A stretch of 64,000 nucleotides of DNA from Shigella phage vB_SdyM_006: the sequence record MK295204. The stretch is one strand, 5' to 3'. Both the position numbers and the translations under genes were made by a program. The notes beneath the pieces were generated by a model, which searched no databases, was not told the DNA's origin, and saw only the letters and a list, made by a program, of their open reading frames with translations. Shown here piece by piece: positions 47,506-64,000 of this stretch (within the stretch, counting starts at the first letter, position 1; every line of letters begins with the position of its first letter).

Positions 47506-48228
47506 TTATTTAAATTCGATAAAGTTACAATGTTTGCCTTTAAAAGATTCATGGATTTCTTCAGTTAAAGATTTCTCACGTAATTCAATATCTTTTTTGA
47601 TATTAGTATGTTCTAAACGAGCTTTAAGTTTTCTTTGTGCAATCTTTTTAGGGATATAATCACAGAATAGCCAAACACCGCCAACAATAATGACAAACAC
47701 AAGACAACATACAACTGCAAATAGAATAGCACCTAGAATATAAGCACCGATTGTTAATCCAGTTCCAAGAGTAATACCATAATAAGTAAGAATATTAATT
47801 AATGCTGTTCCACCTAAAGAACCAAAAGCACCACATAAAGCAGCAATAAGGAATGTAAAGAACAAACTTCGACCTAATAAATTCCAGAAATACCCACAGA
47901 TGCTTTTTGGCATACTAGCTTTAGGTGTAATTAATTTAGTTAATTTATAGTGCCAAGTATCTTTTTTAATTTCAATTTTCGGTGCAACAGAAGATAATCT
48001 GATGTCAACAATATCATTACCCCAGATATGATACTCATTATCAATAACTTTAAAATCTGTATTAACAATATAGCCATTTGAAAATACAAAGATATCGTGT
48101 TTATTAGATTTAGCGAGTTCAATTAAATTATTTGCAATTATAGATGCTTCTTCTTTAGTGGCCCATTCAGAATTAATACGGTGCCATTTAGGAGTTTCGG
48201 TATTAATTAAAAGTTCAATAGTATACAT
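47506..48228 (-). CDS. hypothetical membrane protein
   Basis: 240 aa; central Gly/Ala-rich transmembrane block (FFTFLIAALCGAFGSLGG...VFVIIVGGVWL). Confidence 0.35.
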   Translation of the reverse strand: MYTIELLINTETPKWHRINSEWATKEEASIIANNLIELAKSNKHDIFVFSNGYIVNTDFKVIDNEYHIWGNDIVDIRLSSVAPKIEIKKDTWHYKLTKLITPKASMPKSICGYFWNLLGRSLFFTFLIAALCGAFGSLGGTALINILTYYGITLGTGLTIGAYILGAILFAVVCCLVFVIIVGGVWLFCDYIPKKIAQRKLKARLEHTNIKKDIELREKSLTEEIHESFKGKHCNFIEFK

Positions 48229-48708: not shown

Positions 48709-48915
48709 TTAAAGCCCTTTATTCTTAATAAAATGAGTATTCCATGTATTTGAATTGAATGCCCAGATTAAAATAGCAAGCCATCCAAAAACAGTCCATC
48801 CAAAAACAAAGTTAGCAATAAAAATAGAAGTCTTTGCACAATGATCTCTGTACCATGCCACAAAGAATGGTAAAAAATAAACAACAACTAAAGCTATCAG
48901 AGTTAAAAGTTCCAT
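48709..48915 (-). CDS. hypothetical membrane protein
   Basis: 68 aa, hydrophobic. Confidence 0.3.
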   Translation of the reverse strand: MELLTLIALVVVYFLPFFVAWYRDHCAKTSIFIANFVFGWTVFGWLAILIWAFNSNTWNTHFIKNKGL

Positions 48916-49109
48916 TACTGTTCCTTTTTAATTAAACGAGATGCATAAGGAATTTCGTCATTAAATTTAATAAAACGTTCTTTTTCAATGAGAAGTCCAA
49001 GACCATAAACAACTATACCAGTTAAACCAGTATACATAACAATATACTCCATAGATTCAACAATAATTGTATCACCTATGTTAATAAGACCTAATTCTGA
49101 TAGCTTCAT
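48915..49109 (-). CDS. hypothetical membrane protein
   Basis: 64 aa, hydrophobic core. Confidence 0.3.
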   Translation of the reverse strand: MKLSELGLINIGDTIIVESMEYIVMYTGLTGIVVYGLGLLIEKERFIKFNDEIPYASRLIKKEQ

Positions 49110-51941: not shown

Positions 51942-52314
51942 ATGATAACGATAACAAATACTTAGTCTTTTTACAAAGTGTCATAATTTCATCTAATGCA
52001 GATTGTCCTGCACTACAAGTCGAGTCGTAGATTTCTTCTCCTAAAGAAATTATTTTATCTAATATTTCTGTAGATGATTCTATTTTTGTTGGGAAATTTC
52101 TAGTGTAAGCACCACCACTCCCTAGATATATCTCAACAAATGTGTCTATTAATTCTGGCATATCTTCATAGAAATCTTCATATACTTTATGATGCGCATA
52201 GCTTTTTGTTTCGAAGTGATATGAGTGCATGTAAGAAGAACTTATTAAACATAATCCAATAAATTCACTATGCCTTGTAGACTTGGGTTTTACAAACGTA
52301 GAAAAATCATTCAT
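51940..52314 (-). CDS. hypothetical protein (rI.-1 position)
   Basis: 124 aa, ATG, overlaps rI stop. Confidence 0.3.
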   Translation of the reverse strand: MNDFSTFVKPKSTRHSEFIGLCLISSSYMHSYHFETKSYAHHKVYEDFYEDMPELIDTFVEIYLGSGGAYTRNFPTKIESSTEILDKIISLGEEIYDSTCSAGQSALDEIMTLCKKTKYLLSLS

Positions 52315-52609
52315 CGTGTACTAATTCCTTTTTAAGATTGTATACGTATTCTTGTGCTGCTGTTTTGCCATCTTCACTACATTTGTTATTTTGACAGTTT
52401 GTTTCTTCCCATTTGGTTCTAATGAAAGCATAAAACTGCTCAGATTCTTCTTTAGAAGGTTCTTTCAATTTACTGTACACAGACATGGCACCTTCAGCGT
52501 ATACATTAAAATATTTATCGTCTGATGCATACGCGCTAGAAAACCCAATGCATAGTGTTAAAACACATGCAATTATGCCAGGTGAAAAGTAATTTTTGAA
52601 CTCGGCCAT
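52307..52609 (-). CDS. rI: lysis-inhibition regulator rI-like (signal-anchored periplasmic protein)
   Basis: 100 aa; N-terminal hydrophobic anchor GIIACVLTLCIGFSSAYA; EQFYAFIRTKWEE resembles remembered rI segment; located just 5'-distal of tk as in T4. Confidence 0.5.
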   Translation of the reverse strand: MAEFKNYFSPGIIACVLTLCIGFSSAYASDDKYFNVYAEGAMSVYSKLKEPSKEESEQFYAFIRTKWEETNCQNNKCSEDGKTAAQEYVYNLKKELVHDE

Positions 52610-57348: not shown

Positions 57349-57720
57349 TTATCTCTTTAATTGGAAATGAGGACCATCTTTAAATGTTTTCCAATCACCA
57401 CCCCATTCTATAGCAATACCAAGTTCATTTGCTGCTTGTTTCATTGCTTTGGCAACGAGTTCAAATTTAGACCAATCTTGCCATGGGATAGCTTTATTAA
57501 CTAATGGTCCTAAGTCTACGGCTTCACCTGTCAAATGATAAGAATTCATAGTTTTAGAAACGCCTTTTCGGACATTTTCTTTTTGCTGTTCTACCGAACG
57601 TAGGCCTTCAATAACCATAAAATCTATCTCGGTTATTTGAATTGCTCGCTCTACAACTTTAACAAGCTCAGGTTTAACGCCTTTTAATCTATCTTTTGAT
57701 CTTTGTGATAATACGTACAT
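57349..57720 (-). CDS. endolysin, L-alanyl-D-glutamate peptidase (peptidase M15C)
   Basis: 123 aa; NSYHLTGEAVDL (SxHxxGxAxD) and DGPHFQL (zinc ligands) as in T5-type M15 endolysin; replaces T4 e-lysozyme in this region. Confidence 0.65.
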   Translation of the reverse strand: MYVLSQRSKDRLKGVKPELVKVVERAIQITEIDFMVIEGLRSVEQQKENVRKGVSKTMNSYHLTGEAVDLGPLVNKAIPWQDWSKFELVAKAMKQAANELGIAIEWGGDWKTFKDGPHFQLKR

Positions 57721-57759
57721 AAGTTTCTCCTTTGTTTGCTTATGTACGTATTTATTAAA

Positions 57760-59155: not shown

Positions 59156-59377
59156 TTAATATTCAGCGTTATATAATCGAGACATAAGGTCTCTTAACAT
59201 TTTTGCTTCTTCATTAGATAGACTTAATGATTCGCGATAATTAATGTCACTTGGGATATCTGAATTATTTTTTAAAGTGTCAAATAAAACATCCATGCCA
59301 TGTTCTGTAAATTCTACATCCTCACAGAACAAATAATGATCACTAGATTCGCTAGTGATATGAAAAGCTATATACAT
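59156..59377 (-). CDS. hypothetical protein
   Basis: 73 aa. Confidence 0.3.
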   Translation of the reverse strand: MYIAFHITSESSDHYLFCEDVEFTEHGMDVLFDTLKNNSDIPSDINYRESLSLSNEEAKMLRDLMSRLYNAEY

Positions 59378-59637
59378 TTTATATCCTCTATAATTGAAAG
59401 AGTGTAATTAAGACTATATTTAAATTGTGTGGATTCACTCCATGAGACATCTCCTCGATATCCATACATAGTATCATAAACTATAAGAACACGGTCAGCA
59501 CCATTATCTAATAAAAAGCCATAATAAATTGTAAATTGACGGTCTTTAACACTATTATAGATATAGCAGTCTTTATATCCTAAAGTGGTTTTTATTTTTA
59601 AGGTGCTTCCAATTTCAATTACTAAATTAGGGTTCAT
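59368..59637 (-). CDS. hypothetical protein
   Basis: 89 aa. Confidence 0.3.
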   Translation of the reverse strand: MNPNLVIEIGSTLKIKTTLGYKDCYIYNSVKDRQFTIYYGFLLDNGADRVLIVYDTMYGYRGDVSWSESTQFKYSLNYTLSIIEDIKCI

Positions 59638-59897
59638 TTTCTTTTGGCCTTTATATAATCGTTTATATTTTCTATGCGTTCTAATTCTTTTTCTTTTTTA
59701 ATAGACCTGTAATTAAACACATATTTTATGCCTTCATAAATGAAAATCATAATAGGTATAACTACCATTACAGAACTACATAGTAAAAATATTTGTCCTT
59801 TATTAAAATCTTCTGATAAAGTCTCGTCAATTAGTCCGGATATTAAAACTGCTATGCATGACCACATAAGCCAGATTACTAAAATTGTCTCAACCAT
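59634..59897 (-). CDS. hypothetical membrane protein
   Basis: 87 aa; two hydrophobic helices. Confidence 0.3.
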   Translation of the reverse strand: MVETILVIWLMWSCIAVLISGLIDETLSEDFNKGQIFLLCSSVMVVIPIMIFIYEGIKYVFNYRSIKKEKELERIENINDYIKAKRK

Positions 59898-60163
59898 TAT
59901 AAATGTCCTCGCTTAGAGTTAATGTATGTCTCGACTTCTCTTTTTGTACGGTCAAAAGCTTCTTTTTGCTCATATACTTCTTGAGATTTTTTATATTGCT
60001 TATTAGCATTGATTTCTTTATAATTAGCAGCATATACGTAAATATAAAAGGCCCAGACCATAGGACAAATCATGGATGTAAATTTAGTATAAAACGGTTT
60101 GTTTACAATAGGATATAAACACCAAAAGAAGAACGTAAATATAATATAATTAGCCCAAATCAT
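59897..60163 (-). CDS. hypothetical membrane protein
   Basis: 88 aa; hydrophobic N-terminal half. Confidence 0.3.
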   Translation of the reverse strand: MIWANYIIFTFFFWCLYPIVNKPFYTKFTSMICPMVWAFYIYVYAANYKEINANKQYKKSQEVYEQKEAFDRTKREVETYINSKRGHL

Positions 60164-60639
60164 TTTGTGTCTCCTTTAATTTCATCAAGAAAGTCAAAAT
60201 AAGCGTTAGGATAAAACAATAGAATAAATGGTGTCATTGCTAGCCCAATAGAATACAATATCATACTCAATAAATCTGTAGAATAATGTATAAAGAAAGG
60301 CCAAACTATTAAAATATACATCATTATCATAAAAATAGTGTTCATCATATAAATATTGGACAATTTATGCGGTACACTGTAATACCCGTTTTGGTATCTA
60401 TTGTTATTATTACTTAATGAAATTACAATATCACCTACCGTCTCTTTATCGAAACCTAAATTTATTGTTTCAAACATGACAAAGAGTCCTAAAACTATAC
60501 AACTTATTAAAAATAATAATGAATATGCAAACCCTGCTCCTGTGTTTGCCCACATATCAAATGAGAACAATGTATTTCCAGATAACACAAGTAAAAATAT
60601 AAAGACAACTTTGTTGATTTGAGATAATAAATAATTCAT
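60160..60639 (-). CDS. hypothetical polytopic membrane protein
   Basis: 159 aa; several hydrophobic segments. Confidence 0.35.
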   Translation of the reverse strand: MNYLLSQINKVVFIFLLVLSGNTLFSFDMWANTGAGFAYSLLFLISCIVLGLFVMFETINLGFDKETVGDIVISLSNNNNRYQNGYYSVPHKLSNIYMMNTIFMIMMYILIVWPFFIHYSTDLLSMILYSIGLAMTPFILLFYPNAYFDFLDEIKGDTK

Positions 60640-61127
60640 AATTTTTTCCTACATTGCATAATATATTCTTCAAGAAAAGTTAATTTATTTTCCAGAACGT
60701 CTAAATATTCTTTTTCAAAATTAAAAACAAATTCAATAAGGTCAACATTAGTATTAAAGCATTTTCTATAAGATTCAAAAGATGAAAAATAATGTGCATT
60801 ATCTACGCCAACAAAAAAAGTAATGGCTATATCATCCTTTTTAAAACCAAATAACACATTTGATGATTTTAATGTATCTTCAATTTGGTCAAACTGTATA
60901 ATTGTTTTATTTTTGTCGTCTTTATAAGAAGTAGAATAACACCATATGGATTTAAATGGGTACACTATATCATTTAAAGAACAGTGATTCAACAAGATAT
61001 TTTTTATAGCATTAGCTTTAGCTTCAGGCATATTAAATAGTGGAATCACATAAGAAGTATCGCTTAGTTTTGAATATTTAGAAATAGGGTCTACTAATCT
61101 TAGTACTTCATTAAGCCATTGTTGCAT
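60636..61127 (-). CDS. hypothetical protein
   Basis: 163 aa; ATG with GGAGG Shine-Dalgarno. Confidence 0.35.
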   Translation of the reverse strand: MQQWLNEVLRLVDPISKYSKLSDTSYVIPLFNMPEAKANAIKNILLNHCSLNDIVYPFKSIWCYSTSYKDDKNKTIIQFDQIEDTLKSSNVLFGFKKDDIAITFFVGVDNAHYFSSFESYRKCFNTNVDLIEFVFNFEKEYLDVLENKLTFLEEYIMQCRKKL

Positions 61128-61144
61128 TATAACCTCCTAGTAAA

Positions 61145-61162
61145 ATGGGCCTTTCGGCCCAT
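61145..61162 (-). terminator. putative terminator hairpin
   Basis: atgggcc-tttc-ggcccat followed on minus strand by TTTT then Shine-Dalgarno of next gene. Confidence 0.4.
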
Positions 61163-61177
61163 TAATCAGTTTACTGA

Positions 61178-61774
61178 TTATTTGTTAAAAGTATCAACAT
61201 ATAATTCGAGTTCAGACATATTAACCGAAACATTAGAGCTTTCTGTAAATGTGTCAACTTCTGTAATAATAGTATCAACATCTACTAATACATGGTCTGT
61301 AGAAGCCATTACATCTTCAGGTAATTTGATACCTAATGCATCAGTTTCTTTGTTCAATTTAATAACTTCTAAATTAGCTTTAATTTCTTCTAATTTATCA
61401 GCAAGTTCAACAACTTTTTCTGCGATCGTAATAATAGATTTTTTACGATTTTCAACTTCGGTTTCTAAAGCTTCACCCAATTTTTTATATTGCAAAGCAG
61501 CGATAAAATATGCTTTTGGCACGGCTTGTTCTTTGCTTTTTAAGAGACGAATATGGTCTTCTTTTAGTTTACTGTTTTTAAAGTGGTCTTGAGCCTTGGC
61601 TTTTAAGTGCTCAATGCTTTGAGTTGCAGTAATTTCAGCATGACGTAAACTGTCAATTTTATTGATGATTAACGTCGCAGCTTGGGTATAACGTTCTTCA
61701 GCAGATAAATTGCTTTTGAAGAAAGAAGTTAATTTAGTAGATACGAAGTTTTTAGCAGTTTTTAATAAGCTCAT
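61178..61774 (-). CDS. hypothetical coiled-coil protein
   Basis: 198 aa; heptad-rich, Lys/Glu-rich. Confidence 0.35.
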   Translation of the reverse strand: MSLLKTAKNFVSTKLTSFFKSNLSAEERYTQAATLIINKIDSLRHAEITATQSIEHLKAKAQDHFKNSKLKEDHIRLLKSKEQAVPKAYFIAALQYKKLGEALETEVENRKKSIITIAEKVVELADKLEEIKANLEVIKLNKETDALGIKLPEDVMASTDHVLVDVDTIITEVDTFTESSNVSVNMSELELYVDTFNK

Positions 61775-61965
61775 TTTATTTCCTTACATGTATTAGTTTC
61801 AAAATCAACAATAATATTTTTACGTTCAATGCCAAGATTAATTAATTTAGAAATACATTGACCTTGGATTTTTTGGTCTTCTAAACCTTTAGAAACACTT
61901 TTAGATAATGCACTCCATGAAAAACAAATAACTATTAAAATAACACATCCAATTAAATATTTCAT
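61771..61965 (-). CDS. hypothetical secreted small protein
   Basis: Track ORF to 62025; ATG at 61965 with GGAG Shine-Dalgarno gives MKYLIGCVILIVICFSWSALS signal peptide. Confidence 0.3.
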   Translation of the reverse strand: MKYLIGCVILIVICFSWSALSKSVSKGLEDQKIQGQCISKLINLGIERKNIIVDFETNTCKEIK

Positions 61966-62031
61966 GATATACTCCATTTGTTTTGATGTGTCTATAGTAT
62001 TATAGATTTTTTGTGTTGTAAACATTTATTT

Positions 62032-62487
62032 TTAATTTTTTGAAATTAATTTTCGACATTGGTTTATGTATGCTTTGCGCTGGTTGTCCTCTAATTTTTC
62101 TAGATACGCAGCTTTTTGATCTTTAAAATTAACTAATCTTTCACTTATCTTATTAAATGTATCAGATTTAAGATAAAATACAGATCTTTTAGATTTAAAT
62201 TCAAAATAAGCTATAACAGTTCTTGACACATTTTCTCCTGGCTTCACTTGTGTCCTAGTACTTAATGGAAAATTCAAGTACATTGCAGCTGTGTATTCAG
62301 CCAAGAAGAAAGTCACTTTATCGACGTTATATAAGAGCCAGGACAATATATCATCTTCATTGATATATCTAAATTCAGATTCAATTAAAAGCCTATACCG
62401 AAGATCTGAGACTTGACATTTGCCAGCTTCATAAGAAGGCTCAAAACTTTCTGTGATGACAGAAAGTTCATCTAAATTATAATTCAT
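62032..62487 (-). CDS. hypothetical protein, tandem paralog family (copy 1)
   Basis: 151 aa; shares YxxxxxxVxFxxAEYTAAMYLNFPL and C-terminal AYIxxCRK with next two ORFs. Confidence 0.4.
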   Translation of the reverse strand: MNYNLDELSVITESFEPSYEAGKCQVSDLRYRLLIESEFRYINEDDILSWLLYNVDKVTFFLAEYTAAMYLNFPLSTRTQVKPGENVSRTVIAYFEFKSKRSVFYLKSDTFNKISERLVNFKDQKAAYLEKLEDNQRKAYINQCRKLISKN

Positions 62488-62914
62488 TTAGAGATTCCTT
62501 TATTTTATTTCTACATGATTCAATATAAGCTAAACGTTCAGAAGTTTTGATGGCTTCAATAAATTTGGTTCTTTTATTTTTAAAATCGTCAAACTCAGAA
62601 TATACACTATTGAAAAAATCAGCATCTAAATATACTACGTATTTTTTGTCGTCAAGCATAAATTCAGCTATAACCATACTAGTATATTTTGGGGCTTTTG
62701 AGCCAAGATATATTTTATTTAAACCTTTTAATGGAAAATTCCCGTATGTAGCATACTCGTAGTCAGCGCAATAAAATCTAACAGAACTTACATTATGGTA
62801 CATCCAATTGACAAAGTACTTAGTATACTGTTTATTTTTTCTACGTAAATCAGCAACTAAATATCCTGCTTCTTCTTCATCAAATAATGCAATAAAGTCA
62901 AAATTATTTTTCAT
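62477..62914 (-). CDS. hypothetical protein, tandem paralog family (copy 2)
   Basis: Track start TTG at 62950; first ATG 62914; YCADYEYATYGNFPL, AYIESCRNKIK. Confidence 0.4.
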   Translation of the reverse strand: MKNNFDFIALFDEEEAGYLVADLRRKNKQYTKYFVNWMYHNVSSVRFYCADYEYATYGNFPLKGLNKIYLGSKAPKYTSMVIAEFMLDDKKYVVYLDADFFNSVYSEFDDFKNKRTKFIEAIKTSERLAYIESCRNKIKESLNEL

Positions 62915-63374
62915 GGGTATGACCTTTAATTTTACGACGACATTTTTCAATATAGAAGTCTAATTCATTGGTATACTTAGAATTTACATAAATTTGTTTA
63001 TTTTTACTAAAACCTGAAATACCTTTTAAAACACCTTTGGCTTGATTATAGTCTATAAAGAACACATGTTCTTTATTATCGTACATAAATCTTAAAGCAA
63101 AAGTATCTTTATAGATATTAGATTCTTTTGTAACGATAGAATTAGTAGATTTATCAAGTGGCAAATTACATGCAAGAGCACAAGTATACTCACACTCATA
63201 TAATGTCACATAATTTGTATTAGTATACAAAAAATCTAGAATCTCATCAGAGGTCCAAGCTTTCTCAATATCATTTCCTAGAACACGTAGTTTCCAAAAA
63301 GTGGATTGACGTATATCAGCCCAGATAACATTATTATCTTTGCCTGCTTCAGGTCCTTTAAAAATATCAATCAT
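62904..63374 (-). CDS. hypothetical protein, tandem paralog family (copy 3)
   Basis: 156 aa; ECEYTCALACNLPL, FYIEKCRRKIK. Confidence 0.4.
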   Translation of the reverse strand: MIDIFKGPEAGKDNNVIWADIRQSTFWKLRVLGNDIEKAWTSDEILDFLYTNTNYVTLYECEYTCALACNLPLDKSTNSIVTKESNIYKDTFALRFMYDNKEHVFFIDYNQAKGVLKGISGFSKNKQIYVNSKYTNELDFYIEKCRRKIKGHTHEK

Positions 63375-63664: not shown

Positions 63665-63720
63665 TATAGACTCCGTTTTTAAATTATGTAGCTATTATAC
63701 ACACAATTTTTAATTTGTAC

Positions 63721-63746
63721 ATACTATAAACGAAAAAAGGAACCAA
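63721..63746 (-). terminator. intrinsic terminator hairpin (bidirectional-looking)
   Basis: cgaaaaaaggaaccaaaaggttcctt; U-run on minus strand; follows stop of partial gene at 63752. Confidence 0.55.
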
Positions 63747-63751
63747 AAGGT

Positions 63752-64000
63752 TCCTTTAATTTTAGATACATCCACCACAAGAACTATGTCGCCAATCTTC
63801 TTCGTTAATATGTGGATAAAGAGCATATAAGATTTTTTCGATATCTTTAAATCCATGTCTTTTTAAAGACGAAACTAATGAGTTAGTATCGTGTTTCAAC
63901 ATTAATTGGACCCAACTTTCTGGACTTAACCCTGCTGTATAAGAATCCCATTCTTCAGACCAATTATCGTCAAAACGCCAGGTGTCATAAGATTTACGTG
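63752..64000 (-). CDS. hypothetical protein, C-terminal fragment (N-terminus beyond window end)
   Basis: Hand-translated open frame ending ...HINEEDWRHSSCGGCI-stop at 63752; no start inside window. Confidence 0.35.

What the first reader, a model, noticed from the sequence alone, without database searches (positions are those of the whole stretch)
59634..60639. Three consecutive small membrane proteins
Three adjacent translationally coupled ORFs (87, 88, 159 aa) are strongly hydrophobic; candidate holin/antiholin-like, exclusion or membrane-remodelling functions near nudE and the endolysin.
Basis: seen in the sequence. Interest (0 to 1): 0.25.

Follow-up and report, generated by a model that had tools for sequence, protein, structure and literature searches.

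The report
Early membrane-protein cassette of T4-like phage
Three real, back-to-back small inner-membrane protein genes of a T4-like Proteus/Shigella phage occupy the same position as phage T4's uncharacterised e.2-e.4 genes; they are early accessory genes of unknown function, not the phage's lysis (holin/antiholin) genes.

Summary
Three translationally coupled minus-strand ORFs lie at 60160-60639 (159 aa, 4 TM), 59897-60163 (88 aa, 1 clear and 1 marginal TM) and 59634-59897 (87 aa, 2 TM). The two small ones carry basic tails. All three are under purifying selection (dN/dS 0.25-0.29).

The window is Shigella phage vB_SdyM_006, a Bragavirus (T4-like). The holin/antiholin reading is not supported:
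- The phage has a T-type holin, and RI and RIII lysis-inhibition proteins, elsewhere. An Imm homologue is also elsewhere in the window.
- The trio sits in an operon behind a sigma-70-type early promoter, with no late promoter in sense.
- No holin, antiholin or Imm profile matches any of the three.

By synteny and architecture the trio corresponds to T4 e.4/e.3/e.2, which are annotated as predicted membrane proteins. In T4 these have early RNA, are detected as protein, and show no fitness effect on knockdown. Sequence homology to them could not be shown.

The three families are Bragavirus-only orphans. They form a sharply bounded divergence island and are present or absent in different members of the genus.

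B88 and C87 end in a [FY][IV]xx[CSK][RK] motif. In this genome it occurs only in this locus, and it is shared with neighbouring soluble e.5-like proteins and with T4 e.3/e.4/e.5.

Function is unknown. The most likely role is an early, cytoplasm-facing inner-membrane accessory (host-interaction) function. Interest is low to moderate.

The parts
60160..60639 (-). A159 (vBSdyM006_107): 159-aa protein with four predicted TM helices. Predicted N-in/C-in, with a conserved 44-aa cytoplasmic loop containing ETxxLGFDKETxG.
   Evidence: ORF. Hydropathy and charge distribution (K/R 6 inside, 0 outside). AlphaFold2 helices 3-24, 35-60, 89-119 and 122-154, at low confidence. Conserved loop motif against a 33%-identical orthologue. 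Only two relatives among 1.84e9 cluster representatives.
59897..60163 (-). B88 (vBSdyM006_106): 88 aa. Has TM1 at 1-17, a marginal aromatic TM2 at 28-44, and a 41-aa basic tail ending ..ETYINSKRGHL.
   Evidence: Orthologues phiP43_157 (80% identity) and SJ_197 (36%).
59634..59897 (-). C87: 87 aa. A 2-TM hairpin (5-23 and 36-52) with an acidic 12-aa loop, followed by a 35-aa basic helical tail ending ..NDYIKAKRK.
   Evidence: AlphaFold2 pLDDT 76 with helix 33-86 continuous. Orthologues phiP43_158, SJ_198 and Pm5461_105.
60636..61127 (-). up163: soluble 163-aa protein ending ..EEYIMQCRKKL. Its stop overlaps the A159 start. It is the positional counterpart of T4 e.5.
   Evidence: Top hit (E 0.013) of a tail HMM built only from other genera.
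61128..61177 (-). Intergenic double hairpin (..GGGCCGAAAGGCCC then AUUUUA), followed by the SD AGGAGG of up163. Likely an attenuator or RNA-stability element that marks the 5' edge of the coupled block.
   Evidence: Sequence. Fold of -19.1 kcal/mol. The same hairpin sits directly upstream of Pm5461_105 and is annotated there as a terminator. T4 has a stem-loop between e.6 and e.5.
59156..59637 (-). dn89 and dn73: two soluble small proteins translationally coupled downstream of C87. dn73-like proteins (N-terminus MAIAIYIKSE.. / MAVAVHVKFE..) follow the membrane genes in Klebsiella phage Roth66 and Serratia phage Muldoon as well.
63694..63757 (-). Terminator hairpin followed by a sigma-70-type early promoter (TGTACA-16-TATAAT). 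This is the nearest upstream promoter of the operon that contains the trio.
   Evidence: It resembles the GTTTACA..TATTATA early promoters annotated in Pm5461.
59620..60920 (.). Divergence island: about 10% nucleotide divergence from phiP4-3, inside DNA that is otherwise 0-1% divergent. It covers C87, B88, A159 and the 3' part of up163.
   Evidence: dS is 0.18-0.32 inside the island against 0-0.07 in the flanks.
60348..60355 (+). The only TATAAATA (T4 late-promoter consensus) in the 64-kb window. It lies antisense inside A159.
   Evidence: It is conserved in phiP4-3. Pm5461 and SJ_PmiM also each carry one antisense copy inside their cassettes, at different sites.

Best explanation
The three ORFs are genuine, early-expressed, non-essential accessory inner-membrane proteins. 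They are the Bragavirus version of the membrane-protein cassette that T4-like phages carry between e.6/e.5 and nudE. In T4 that cassette is e.4, e.3 and e.2.

Proposed mechanism:
- They are co-transcribed from a sigma-70-type early promoter and translated by coupling, together with the soluble e.5-like protein up163.
- They insert into the host inner membrane with almost all extramembrane mass facing the cytoplasm.
- B88 and C87 are N-in/C-in helical hairpins. Their second TM helix continues as a 35-40-residue basic helix ending in a YIxxKR motif.
- That motif is shared with the neighbouring soluble paralogues.
- I therefore infer that the tails are membrane-anchored interaction modules. They would tether or sequester a cytoplasmic partner (the e.5-like proteins or a host factor) at the membrane early in infection.
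- The role would be host takeover, anti-defence or phage-phage competition. It would not be membrane permeabilisation for lysis.

Shown here: the ORFs, their membrane character, the coupling, purifying selection, the synteny, the restricted distribution of the motif, and the absence of a late promoter.

Inferred only: the early timing in this particular phage, the topology, the tether mechanism, and the biological role.
For: Identity and context.
- The window is vB_SdyM_006, with 96% nucleotide identity to Bragavirus phiP4-3.

Synteny.
- T4 order: e.6 > e.5 > e.4 (2 TM) > e.3 (2 TM) > e.2 (1 TM) > nudE > e.
- Window order: e.6 homologue (31% identity, phrog_1203) > up163 > A159 > B88 > C87 > dn89 > dn73 > nudix > endolysin.
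- Similar blocks occur in Mosigvirus, Gaprivervirus, Dhakavirus, Klebsiella phage Roth66 (three consecutive TM proteins) and Muldoonvirus.

T4 experiments.
- e.2-e.6 all have early RNA, and all are detected as proteins.
- Knockdown of e.2-e.6 gives no fitness effect.

Expression signals.
- An early promoter with terminator lies at 63757-63694.
- There is no sense TATAAATA, or 7/8 variant, at 59-61 kb.

Topology.
- K/R lie almost entirely on one side of each protein.
- C87 has a continuous TM2-to-tail helix.

Motif.
- [FY][IV]..[CSK][RK] within the last 25 aa occurs in 6 of 124 window ORFs, all at 59634-63374.
- In phiP4-3 it occurs in 6 of 29 ORFs in the locus and 0 of 230 ORFs elsewhere.
- Arg codons vary, and in several genes the motif lies more than 20 nt from the next start. 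Selection therefore acts at protein level.

Accessory, arms-race-like behaviour.
- The trio forms a divergence island.
- Pm5461 keeps only the C87 type. PM2 lacks the whole block.

Canonical holin, RI, RIII and Imm are all encoded elsewhere.
Against: - No significant sequence or profile similarity ties A159, B88 or C87 to T4 e.2/e.3/e.4. The PHROG HMMs of e.3 and e.4 do not hit them.
- hhalign gives C87 family against e.3 family only 42% probability, while an unrelated TM control pair reached 36%.
- A tail HMM trained on other genera ranks B88 only 4th (E 0.63, and not over the motif). It does not find C87.
- In B88 and C87 the conserved Cys of the motif is Lys.
- Part of the motif overlaps the Shine-Dalgarno sequence of the next gene, so dual-coding constraints contribute.
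- Early timing in this phage is inferred from promoter consensus and from T4. It was not measured.
- The sigma-70 consensus scan as a whole is not enriched over shuffles.
- No experiment anywhere assigns a function to the T4 counterparts.
- A 2-TM, N-in/C-in protein with a charged C-tail is also the topology of class II holins.
Confidence: 0.6

Rival explanations
1. Lysis control. One or more of the three are a holin, pinholin or antiholin that works with the nearby M15 endolysin. GenBank annotators of Serratia phage Muldoon made the same call for the equivalent genes.
For: B88 and C87 have the class II holin-like layout: two TMs, a short loop and a charged C-terminal tail. The endolysin is 1.9 kb downstream. 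The Muldoon counterparts are annotated "putative holin or antiholin" purely on TM content and proximity.
Against: - The genome already has a T-type holin, RI and RIII.
- No holin or antiholin profile matches the trio.
- There is no sense late promoter near the trio, whereas the endolysin has its own AATAAATA 28 nt upstream.
- The T4 counterparts are early genes and their knockdown has no fitness effect.
- Related phages with the same endolysin lack two (Pm5461) or all three (PM2) of these genes.
- Gene order e-nudE-e.x is general T4 synteny, and in T4 the holin t lies far away (established T4 genetics).
Confidence: 0.06
2. Superinfection exclusion or immunity. The proteins would alter the inner membrane so that DNA of secondary (related) phages cannot enter, in addition to the canonical Imm.
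For: - Early operon, small inner-membrane hairpins, and dispensability in T4 for the counterparts.
- Allelic cassette behaviour with elevated dS, and presence/absence polymorphism within one genus. This is typical of phage-phage or phage-host conflict genes.
- T4 Imm is likewise a small 2-TM early protein (established knowledge).
Against: - A bona fide Imm homologue already exists at 48709-48915.
- There is no similarity to PF14373.
- Periplasmic loops are 13 aa or shorter and carry little that could contact an incoming tail tip.
- The conserved parts are cytoplasmic: the tails and the A159 loop ETxxLGFDKETxG.
- No experimental exclusion phenotype is known for T4 e.2-e.4.
Confidence: 0.15
3. 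The ORFs are decaying or functionless filler of a hyperplastic region. Hydrophobicity would be a by-product of AT-rich, T-rich codons, and the shared C-terminal motif would only reflect translation-initiation signals of overlapping downstream genes.
For: - The genome is 31% GC.
- The families are orphans, with 2 relatives among 1.84e9 cluster representatives.
- The block is dispensable within the genus.
- The motif often overlaps AAGGAA / AGGAAA Shine-Dalgarno sequences.
- dN/dS (0.25-0.29) is higher than for up163 (0.11).
Against: - dN/dS is well below 1, with many synonymous changes.
- Reading frames, TM architecture, tails and the motif are kept in orthologues at 30-36% identity.
- Only 10 of 122 ORFs in the same AT-rich window have a TM-like segment.
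- The motif is conserved where it is not near a start codon, and with varied Arg codons.
- The T4 counterparts are detected as proteins.
Confidence: 0.04

Closest known systems
Phage T4 e.4, e.3 and e.2 (formerly msp5, msp6, msp7; phrog_2604, phrog_2330, phrog_35263/2203): three consecutive "conserved hypothetical, predicted membrane proteins" between e.5 and nudE
   Same: - Same genomic slot, downstream of the e.6 homologue and an e.5-like soluble protein and upstream of nudE and the endolysin.
- Same strand and overlapping, coupled reading frames.
- e.3 and e.4 are 2-TM hairpins with basic C-terminal tails ending F[VI]xx[CS]R, as B88 and C87 are with YIxxKR.
- Function unknown.
   Different: - No demonstrable sequence homology.
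- A159 has four TMs and no T4 equivalent.
- T4 e.2 has a soluble N-domain with one C-terminal TM.
- The motif Cys is replaced by Lys.
- The Bragavirus proteins lack the 15-25-aa N-terminal extension of e.3/e.4.
T4 Imm (superinfection immunity protein, PF14373)
   Same: A small, early inner-membrane protein with two TM segments, encoded by a non-essential accessory gene.
   Different: No profile match. The phage's real Imm homologue is at 48709-48915. Imm has no long basic helical tail with this motif.
Class II holins / pinholins (for example S21 of phage 21), and the T4 T holin / RI antiholin system
   Same: B88 and C87 share the 2-TM, N-in/C-in topology with a charged cytoplasmic C-terminus.
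   Different: - Early rather than late gene context.
- No family match.
- The T-type holin and the RI and RIII proteins are present elsewhere.
- RI acts through a periplasmic domain, which these proteins lack.
Klebsiella phage Roth66 (120, 98 and 108 aa) and Serratia phage Muldoon gp121/gp120 membrane ORFs
   Same: Runs of two or three small TM proteins in the same slot. They are followed by a dn73-like protein and nudE. Tails end FIKEVRRK, WIRSCRK and FIKYCKDKY.
   Different: Different sequence families. The Muldoon ones are annotated as holin/antiholin without functional evidence.

Membership tests
Holin (T4 T-type or class I/II/III holins) | Sequence or profile match to a holin family | tested here: not met
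   Pfam, PHROGs and NCBIfam give no holin hit at E <= 0.1.
Holin (T4 T-type or class I/II/III holins) | Late expression, co-regulated with the endolysin | tested here: not met
   There is no sense TATAAATA, or 7/8 variant, at 59-61 kb. The nearest upstream promoter is sigma-70-type, at about 63.7 kb. The T4 counterparts have early RNA. Timing was not measured in this phage.
Holin (T4 T-type or class I/II/III holins) | It is the phage's membrane-lesion protein, with no other holin present | tested here: not met
   gp238 of vB_SdyM_006 is a T-type holin. phiP43_014, "holin lysis mediator", lies next to the gp38-type gene.
Holin (T4 T-type or class I/II/III holins) | At least one TMD with a charged cytoplasmic C-terminus | tested here: met
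   B88 and C87 have this layout. The feature is not specific to holins.
Holin (T4 T-type or class I/II/III holins) | Triggered hole formation or lethality on expression | not testable with these tools
   Needs an induction and complementation assay.
T4 RI antiholin (PF24205) | Profile match, plus a periplasmic domain that binds the holin | tested here: not met
   No match for the trio. The true RI is at 52307-52609 (E 4.4e-31). The trio's periplasmic loops are 13 aa or shorter.
Imm superinfection immunity (PF14373) | Profile match | tested here: not met
   No match. The true homologue is at 48709-48915 (E 1.3e-14).
T4 e.3/e.4-type membrane proteins (phrog_2330 / phrog_2604) | Position between e.6/e.5-like genes and nudE, same strand, coupled ORFs | tested here: met
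T4 e.3/e.4-type membrane proteins (phrog_2330 / phrog_2604) | Two TM helices followed by a basic helical tail of about 35-50 aa | tested here: met
   C87 clearly. B88 with a marginal TM2. A159 does not fit, having 4 TMs and no such tail.
T4 e.3/e.4-type membrane proteins (phrog_2330 / phrog_2604) | C-terminal [FY][IV]xx[CS][RK] motif | tested here: inconclusive
   Present as YIxxKR, with Lys in place of Cys. It is locus-specific: 0 of 230 ORFs elsewhere in phiP4-3. It is not recovered by an HMM trained on other genera.
T4 e.3/e.4-type membrane proteins (phrog_2330 / phrog_2604) | Significant sequence or profile similarity | tested here: not met
   No PHROG hit. hhalign gives 42% probability against 36% for an unrelated TM control pair. 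Only weak web-like hits exist: C87 to phrog_2203 (E 0.057), and SJ_198 and T4 e.4 both to phrog_944 (E 0.003 and 0.02).
T4 e.3/e.4-type membrane proteins (phrog_2330 / phrog_2604) | Early transcription and dispensability | not tested
   Shown for T4 only. For this phage it is inferred from promoter motifs and from presence/absence within the genus.

The most novel reading that the evidence does not exclude
The C-terminal amphipathic helix ending [FY][IV]xx[CK]R would be a previously undescribed, portable interaction module of T4-like phages.
- It is attached either to soluble domains (the e.5 family; up163 and the three tandem paralogues at 62032-63374) or to 2-TM membrane anchors (e.3, e.4, B88, C87).
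- Co-translated members would assemble through it into a membrane-tethered complex.
- The variable parts of that complex (a divergence island, with presence/absence within a genus) would be tuned to host or rival-phage targets.
- The cassette would then be a modular anti-defence or exclusion locus.
- The antisense late promoter found inside the cassette in all three Bragavirus variants would shut it off late in infection.
Probability: 0.15. Interest if true: 0.55.

Novelty: new member of a known kind. Interest (0 to 1): 0.27.

Why it matters
It corrects a tempting mis-annotation: TM proteins near an endolysin called as holin/antiholin. That call already exists in GenBank for Serratia phage Muldoon.

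It also links three orphan genes to the long-known but uncharacterised T4 e.2-e.4 block.

The block is widely conserved in position but fast-evolving in sequence. It carries a locus-restricted C-terminal motif shared between membrane and soluble neighbours.

That makes it a reasonable, testable candidate locus for host-interaction or anti-defence functions in T4-like phages. T4 genetics (HIDEN-SEQ or CRISPRi-ART under defence-system challenge) could address it directly.

On its own, the finding is an ordinary set of hypothetical membrane proteins.

Tried and rejected
- Pfam, PHROGs and NCBIfam scans of the trio gave only sub-threshold noise.
- A PDB sequence search with A159 found nothing.
- Word-indexed searches of 5.8e9 proteins, one per protein, found only the protein itself or near-identical (78-95%) Bragavirus copies.
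- A full HMMER search of 1.84e9 cluster representatives with an A159 profile found only two Bragavirus proteins.
- tblastn against 50,697 phage records found Bragavirus hits only.
- Foldseek against BFVD gave no hits for C87 and only E > 1 for the low-confidence A159 model, so I did not spend the third fold search.
- The search for related loci with the e.6 alignment returned only 6 loci. I sampled genera by tblastn and record fetches instead.
- hhalign between small family alignments gave suggestive scores. These were rejected as proof because an unrelated TM control pair scored almost as high.
- The tail HMM supports the soluble e.5-like proteins marginally but not B88 or C87.
- The generic sigma-70 and terminator scan is no better than shuffles overall. 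Only the intergenic terminator-plus-promoter at about 63.7 kb is convincing.
- MotA-box middle promoters: none near the trio.
- Literature searches found no functional study of T4 e.2-e.5. The Miller et al. T4 genome review was not available.
- A159 as a fusion of two B88/C87-type units: no hhalign support.
- Spanins were rejected because the trio has no periplasmic domains.
Full report
**1. What is there**

The three ORFs exist exactly as described, all on the minus strand:
- A159 at 60160-60639 (159 aa)
- B88 at 59897-60163 (88 aa)
- C87 at 59634-59897 (87 aa)

Each start overlaps the previous stop (ATGA or TAATG), and each has an upstream AGGA/GAGGA-type Shine-Dalgarno sequence. The coupled chain is longer than the finding states. 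It runs up163 (60636-61127) > A159 > B88 > C87 > dn89 (59368-59637) > dn73 (59156-59377).

Hydropathy by Kyte-Doolittle and by the Hessa biological scale gives:
- A159: four TM segments (11-27, 40-56, 101-117, 126-142).
- C87: two TM segments (5-23, 36-52).
- B88: one clear segment (1-17) and a marginal, Tyr/Trp/Pro-rich second segment (28-44). That segment is more hydrophobic in the orthologues.

B88 is therefore "hydrophobic" only in its N-terminal half. Residues 48-88 are highly charged, as are residues 53-87 of C87.

Lys and Arg lie almost entirely on one side of each protein. This predicts N-in/C-in topologies, periplasmic loops of 13 residues or fewer, and all sizeable extramembrane parts in the cytoplasm.

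AlphaFold2 on shallow alignments gave two results:
- C87 (pLDDT 76) is a helical hairpin whose second helix runs uninterrupted from residue 33 to 86.
- A159 (pLDDT 54, low confidence) has four long helices and a short helix in the 57-100 loop.

No dedicated TM predictor was available.

**2. Are they genes, and is the cluster more than chance?**

Against phiP4-3, dN/dS is 0.25 for C87, 0.29 for B88 and 0.29 for A159, with 13-17 synonymous differences each. Phage SJ_PmiM has a syntenic trio (SJ_196/197/198) at only 30-36% identity that keeps lengths, TM layout and tails. These are real coding genes.

In the window, 10 of 122 minus-strand gene-like ORFs have a TM-like 19-mer. Three in a row has permutation P = 0.045.

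**3. Where the window comes from**

A159 and B88 are 100% identical to vBSdyM006_107 and _106 of Shigella phage vB_SdyM_006. The region is 96% identical to Proteus phage phiP4-3 (Straboviridae, Bragavirus).

In phiP4-3 the three genes are phiP43_156, 157 and 158. They are annotated "hypothetical" or "putative membrane protein".

**4. Not the lysis system**

- The genome paper assigns the endolysin (ORF98, PF13539), a T-type holin (gp238), RI (gp85) and RIII (gp200) (PMC7925395).
- phiP4-3 has the holin next to the gp38-type gene, as T4 does, and has rIII and rI elsewhere.
- Within the window, 52307-52609 matches the T4 antiholin family (PF24205, E 4.4e-31).
- Also within the window, 48709-48915 matches Imm_superinfect (PF14373, E 1.3e-14).
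- The trio matches no Pfam, PHROG or NCBIfam family.
- TATAAATA, the T4 late promoter, occurs once in 64 kb against 16.6 expected, and that copy is on the opposite strand.
- No 7/8 variant lies in sense at 59-61 kb. The endolysin, by contrast, has AATAAATA 28 nt before its ATG.
- The nearest upstream promoter on the coding strand is a terminator-plus-sigma-70-type promoter at 63757-63694. It resembles the early promoters annotated in Pm5461.
- A strong double hairpin (-19 kcal/mol) sits between the e.6 homologue and up163.

**5. What it corresponds to**

The T4 gene order is e.6 > e.5 > e.4 > e.3 > e.2 > nudE > e. The window's 198-aa protein (61178-61774) is the e.6 homologue (31% identity, phrog_1203).

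T4 e.4 and e.3 are 2-TM proteins with basic tails, and e.2 has one C-terminal TM. T4's own annotation calls all three "predicted membrane protein". An old GenBank record names the block msp1-8.

The same e.6 > e.5 > e.4 > e.3 block is kept in Mosigvirus, Gaprivervirus and Dhakavirus. Two more distant phages show close parallels:
- Klebsiella phage Roth66: e.5-like > three consecutive TM proteins > dn73-like > nudE.
- Serratia phage Muldoon: e.5-like > two TM proteins > dn73-like > one further small ORF > nudE.

Karamvirus, Tulanevirus and Pseudotevenvirus keep an e.5-like protein but have no TM genes there.

The trio is therefore the Bragavirus edition of a positionally conserved, sequence-variable membrane cassette.

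For T4, published omics class e.2-e.6 RNA as early. The proteins are detected: e.4 and e.5 early, e.2 and e.6 middle, e.3 late (PMC9697503 supplements). CRISPRi-ART knockdown of e.2-e.6 gives no fitness effect, and their prior essentiality is listed as unknown (PMC11879866 supplements). I found no functional study of these genes.

**6. Homology could not be proven**

- The three families are orphans. There are two relatives each in 5.8e9 proteins.
- There are two hits for A159 in a full HMMER scan of 1.84e9 cluster representatives.
- tblastn finds Bragavirus only.
- The PHROG profiles of e.3 and e.4 do not hit the trio.
- Weak bridging hits exist: C87 to phrog_2203 (the e.2 family) at E 0.057, and SJ_198 and T4 e.4 both to phrog_944.
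- Small-profile hhalign gives e.4-e.3 71%, e.3-e.5 tails 61%, C-B 50% and C-e.3 42%. An unrelated TM control pair reached 36%.

I therefore claim positional and architectural equivalence, not membership.

**7. The shared C-terminal motif**

B88 (..ETYINSKRGHL) and C87 (..NDYIKAKRK) end like four soluble neighbours:
- up163: ..EEYIMQCRKKL
- the 62032-62487 product: ..AYINQCRK..
- the 62477-62950 product: ..AYIESCRN..
- the 62904-63374 product: ..FYIEKCRR..

The last three are tandem paralogues (phrog_16787).

The regex [FY][IV]..[CSK][RK] in the last 25 residues hits 6 of 124 ORFs in the window, all within 59634-63374. In phiP4-3 it hits 6 of 29 ORFs in the locus and 0 of 230 elsewhere.

The same motif ends T4, Mosigvirus and Gaprivervirus e.5, e.4 and e.3, and several Roth66, Muldoon, Karamvirus and Tulanevirus proteins in this region.

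At DNA level it often overlaps the Shine-Dalgarno sequence of the next overlapping gene (AAGGAA = Lys-Glu; AGGAAA = Arg-Lys). But Arg codons vary (CGA, AGA, CGT, AGG). In e.5 of Gaprivervirus and in the three window paralogues, the motif lies more than 20 nt from the next start. Selection at protein level is therefore the main cause, with dual coding on top.

A tail HMM built only from other genera ranks up163 first (E 0.013) and the 62032-62487 product second among 458 six-frame ORFs. It does not significantly recover B88 or C87.

The spacing i, i+1, i+4, i+5 puts the conserved residues on one helix face. This fits the continuous tail helix that AlphaFold2 predicts for C87.

**8. Evolutionary behaviour**

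Against phiP4-3 the DNA is 0-1% divergent, except for a sharply bounded island at about 59620-60920 with roughly 10% divergence. The island covers C87, B88, A159 and the 3' part of up163.

Both dS (0.18-0.32 against 0-0.07 in the flanks) and dN are raised. This indicates import of a diverged allele by recombination, not merely relaxed constraint.

Within the genus the cassette varies:
- SJ_PmiM carries a second allelic type of all four genes.
- Pm5461 has the hairpin followed directly by a C87-type gene only.
- PM2 lacks the whole block, including e.6.

This is typical of accessory genes involved in host or rival-phage interaction.

**9. Mechanism and confidence**

I hold with fair confidence (about 0.6) that these are early, dispensable inner-membrane accessory proteins with cytoplasm-facing functional parts, equivalent to T4 e.2-e.4 and unrelated to lysis.

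The more specific idea has about 0.2-0.25 confidence. It is that B88 and C87 are membrane anchors presenting an interaction helix shared with the co-translated soluble e.5-like proteins, so that a partner is tethered at the membrane. This is an inference from the motif distribution, the coupling and the predicted topology.

The best-conserved parts of A159 are its N-terminus and the cytoplasmic loop ETxxLGFDKETxG. That again points to a cytoplasmic interaction surface.

Rivals are an Imm-like exclusion role (0.15), lysis control (0.06) and functionless filler (0.04).

**10. Verdict**

The novelty is that of new, orphan members of a known but uncharacterised kind. The locus-restricted C-terminal motif, the divergence island and the antisense late-promoter consensus are small new observations that make the T4 e.2-e.5 block a more attractive experimental target.

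Overall interest is low to moderate.

Noticed in passing
window 59634-63374 (minus strand); also L007 (T4), L015-L017, L020-L023: A C-terminal motif [FY][IV]xx[CSK][RK] ends six ORFs of this 3.7-kb stretch and no other ORF of the window. In phiP4-3 it occurs in 0 of 230 ORFs outside the locus. It also ends T4, Mosigvirus, Gaprivervirus and Dhakavirus e.3/e.4/e.5 and proteins of Roth66, Muldoon, Karamvirus and Tulanevirus. It partly overlaps downstream Shine-Dalgarno sequences but is conserved at protein level.
   Followed up: partly
window 62032-62487, 62477-62950 (likely true start 62914), 62904-63374, and 60636-61127: Three tandem paralogues of about 145-156 aa (phrog_16787, unknown function), plus up163, form an e.5-like soluble family upstream of and adjacent to the membrane trio. 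The alignment with phiP4-3 breaks down from about 62360 onward, through an indel or a replaced segment.
   Followed up: partly
window 60348-60355 (+); L002 5853 (+); L003 5148 (+): The only TATAAATA in 64 kb (16.6 expected) lies antisense inside A159 and is identical in phiP4-3. Pm5461 and SJ_PmiM each also have one antisense copy inside their cassette, at different positions. None of ten other T4-like loci examined has one. This may be a late antisense promoter that silences the early cassette.
   Followed up: partly
window 59620-60920: A sharply bounded island of about 10% nucleotide divergence from phiP4-3, in otherwise 0-1% divergent DNA. dS is raised about tenfold, which is a recombination-import signature.
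   Followed up: yes
window 48709-48915, 48915-49109, 52307-52609: A canonical Imm superinfection-immunity homologue (68 aa, PF14373) is immediately followed by a 64-aa protein with a Phage_tudor match (at the Pfam threshold) and a TM-like segment. The RI antiholin homologue (PF24205) lies at 52307-52609.
   Followed up: partly
window 47506-48228: A 240-aa protein with about three TM-like segments and weak, sub-threshold similarity to PspB and to the SAVED-fused 2TM effector domain (Saf_2TM).
   Followed up: no
window 57749-57756 (minus), upstream of the endolysin at 57349-57720: The M15 endolysin has AATAAATA (7/8 of the late-promoter consensus) about 28 nt before its ATG. There is no perfect sense-strand TATAAATA anywhere in the window.
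   Followed up: partly
window 61771-62025: A fourth small membrane-type protein (84 aa, one TM or signal anchor) is coupled to the e.6 homologue, two genes upstream of the trio.
   Followed up: no
L015 4231-5025, L016/L017 4191-4979, L020 5299-5825, L023 5868-6449: In Mosigvirus, Gaprivervirus, Dhakavirus and Karamvirus, the slot after e.3 holds two or three small soluble paralogues that all end in WVSSSxxC (Karamvirus variants: WLSSSDMC and WYTSSC). This is another unexplained C-terminal signature. T4 e.2 instead ends in a TM segment.
   Followed up: no
L022 5632-6289 (Serratia phage Muldoon gp121/gp120): GenBank annotates the positional equivalents as "putative holin or antiholin" solely on TM content and proximity to the endolysin. 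Given the T4-type synteny, this is probably a mis-annotation.
   Followed up: partly
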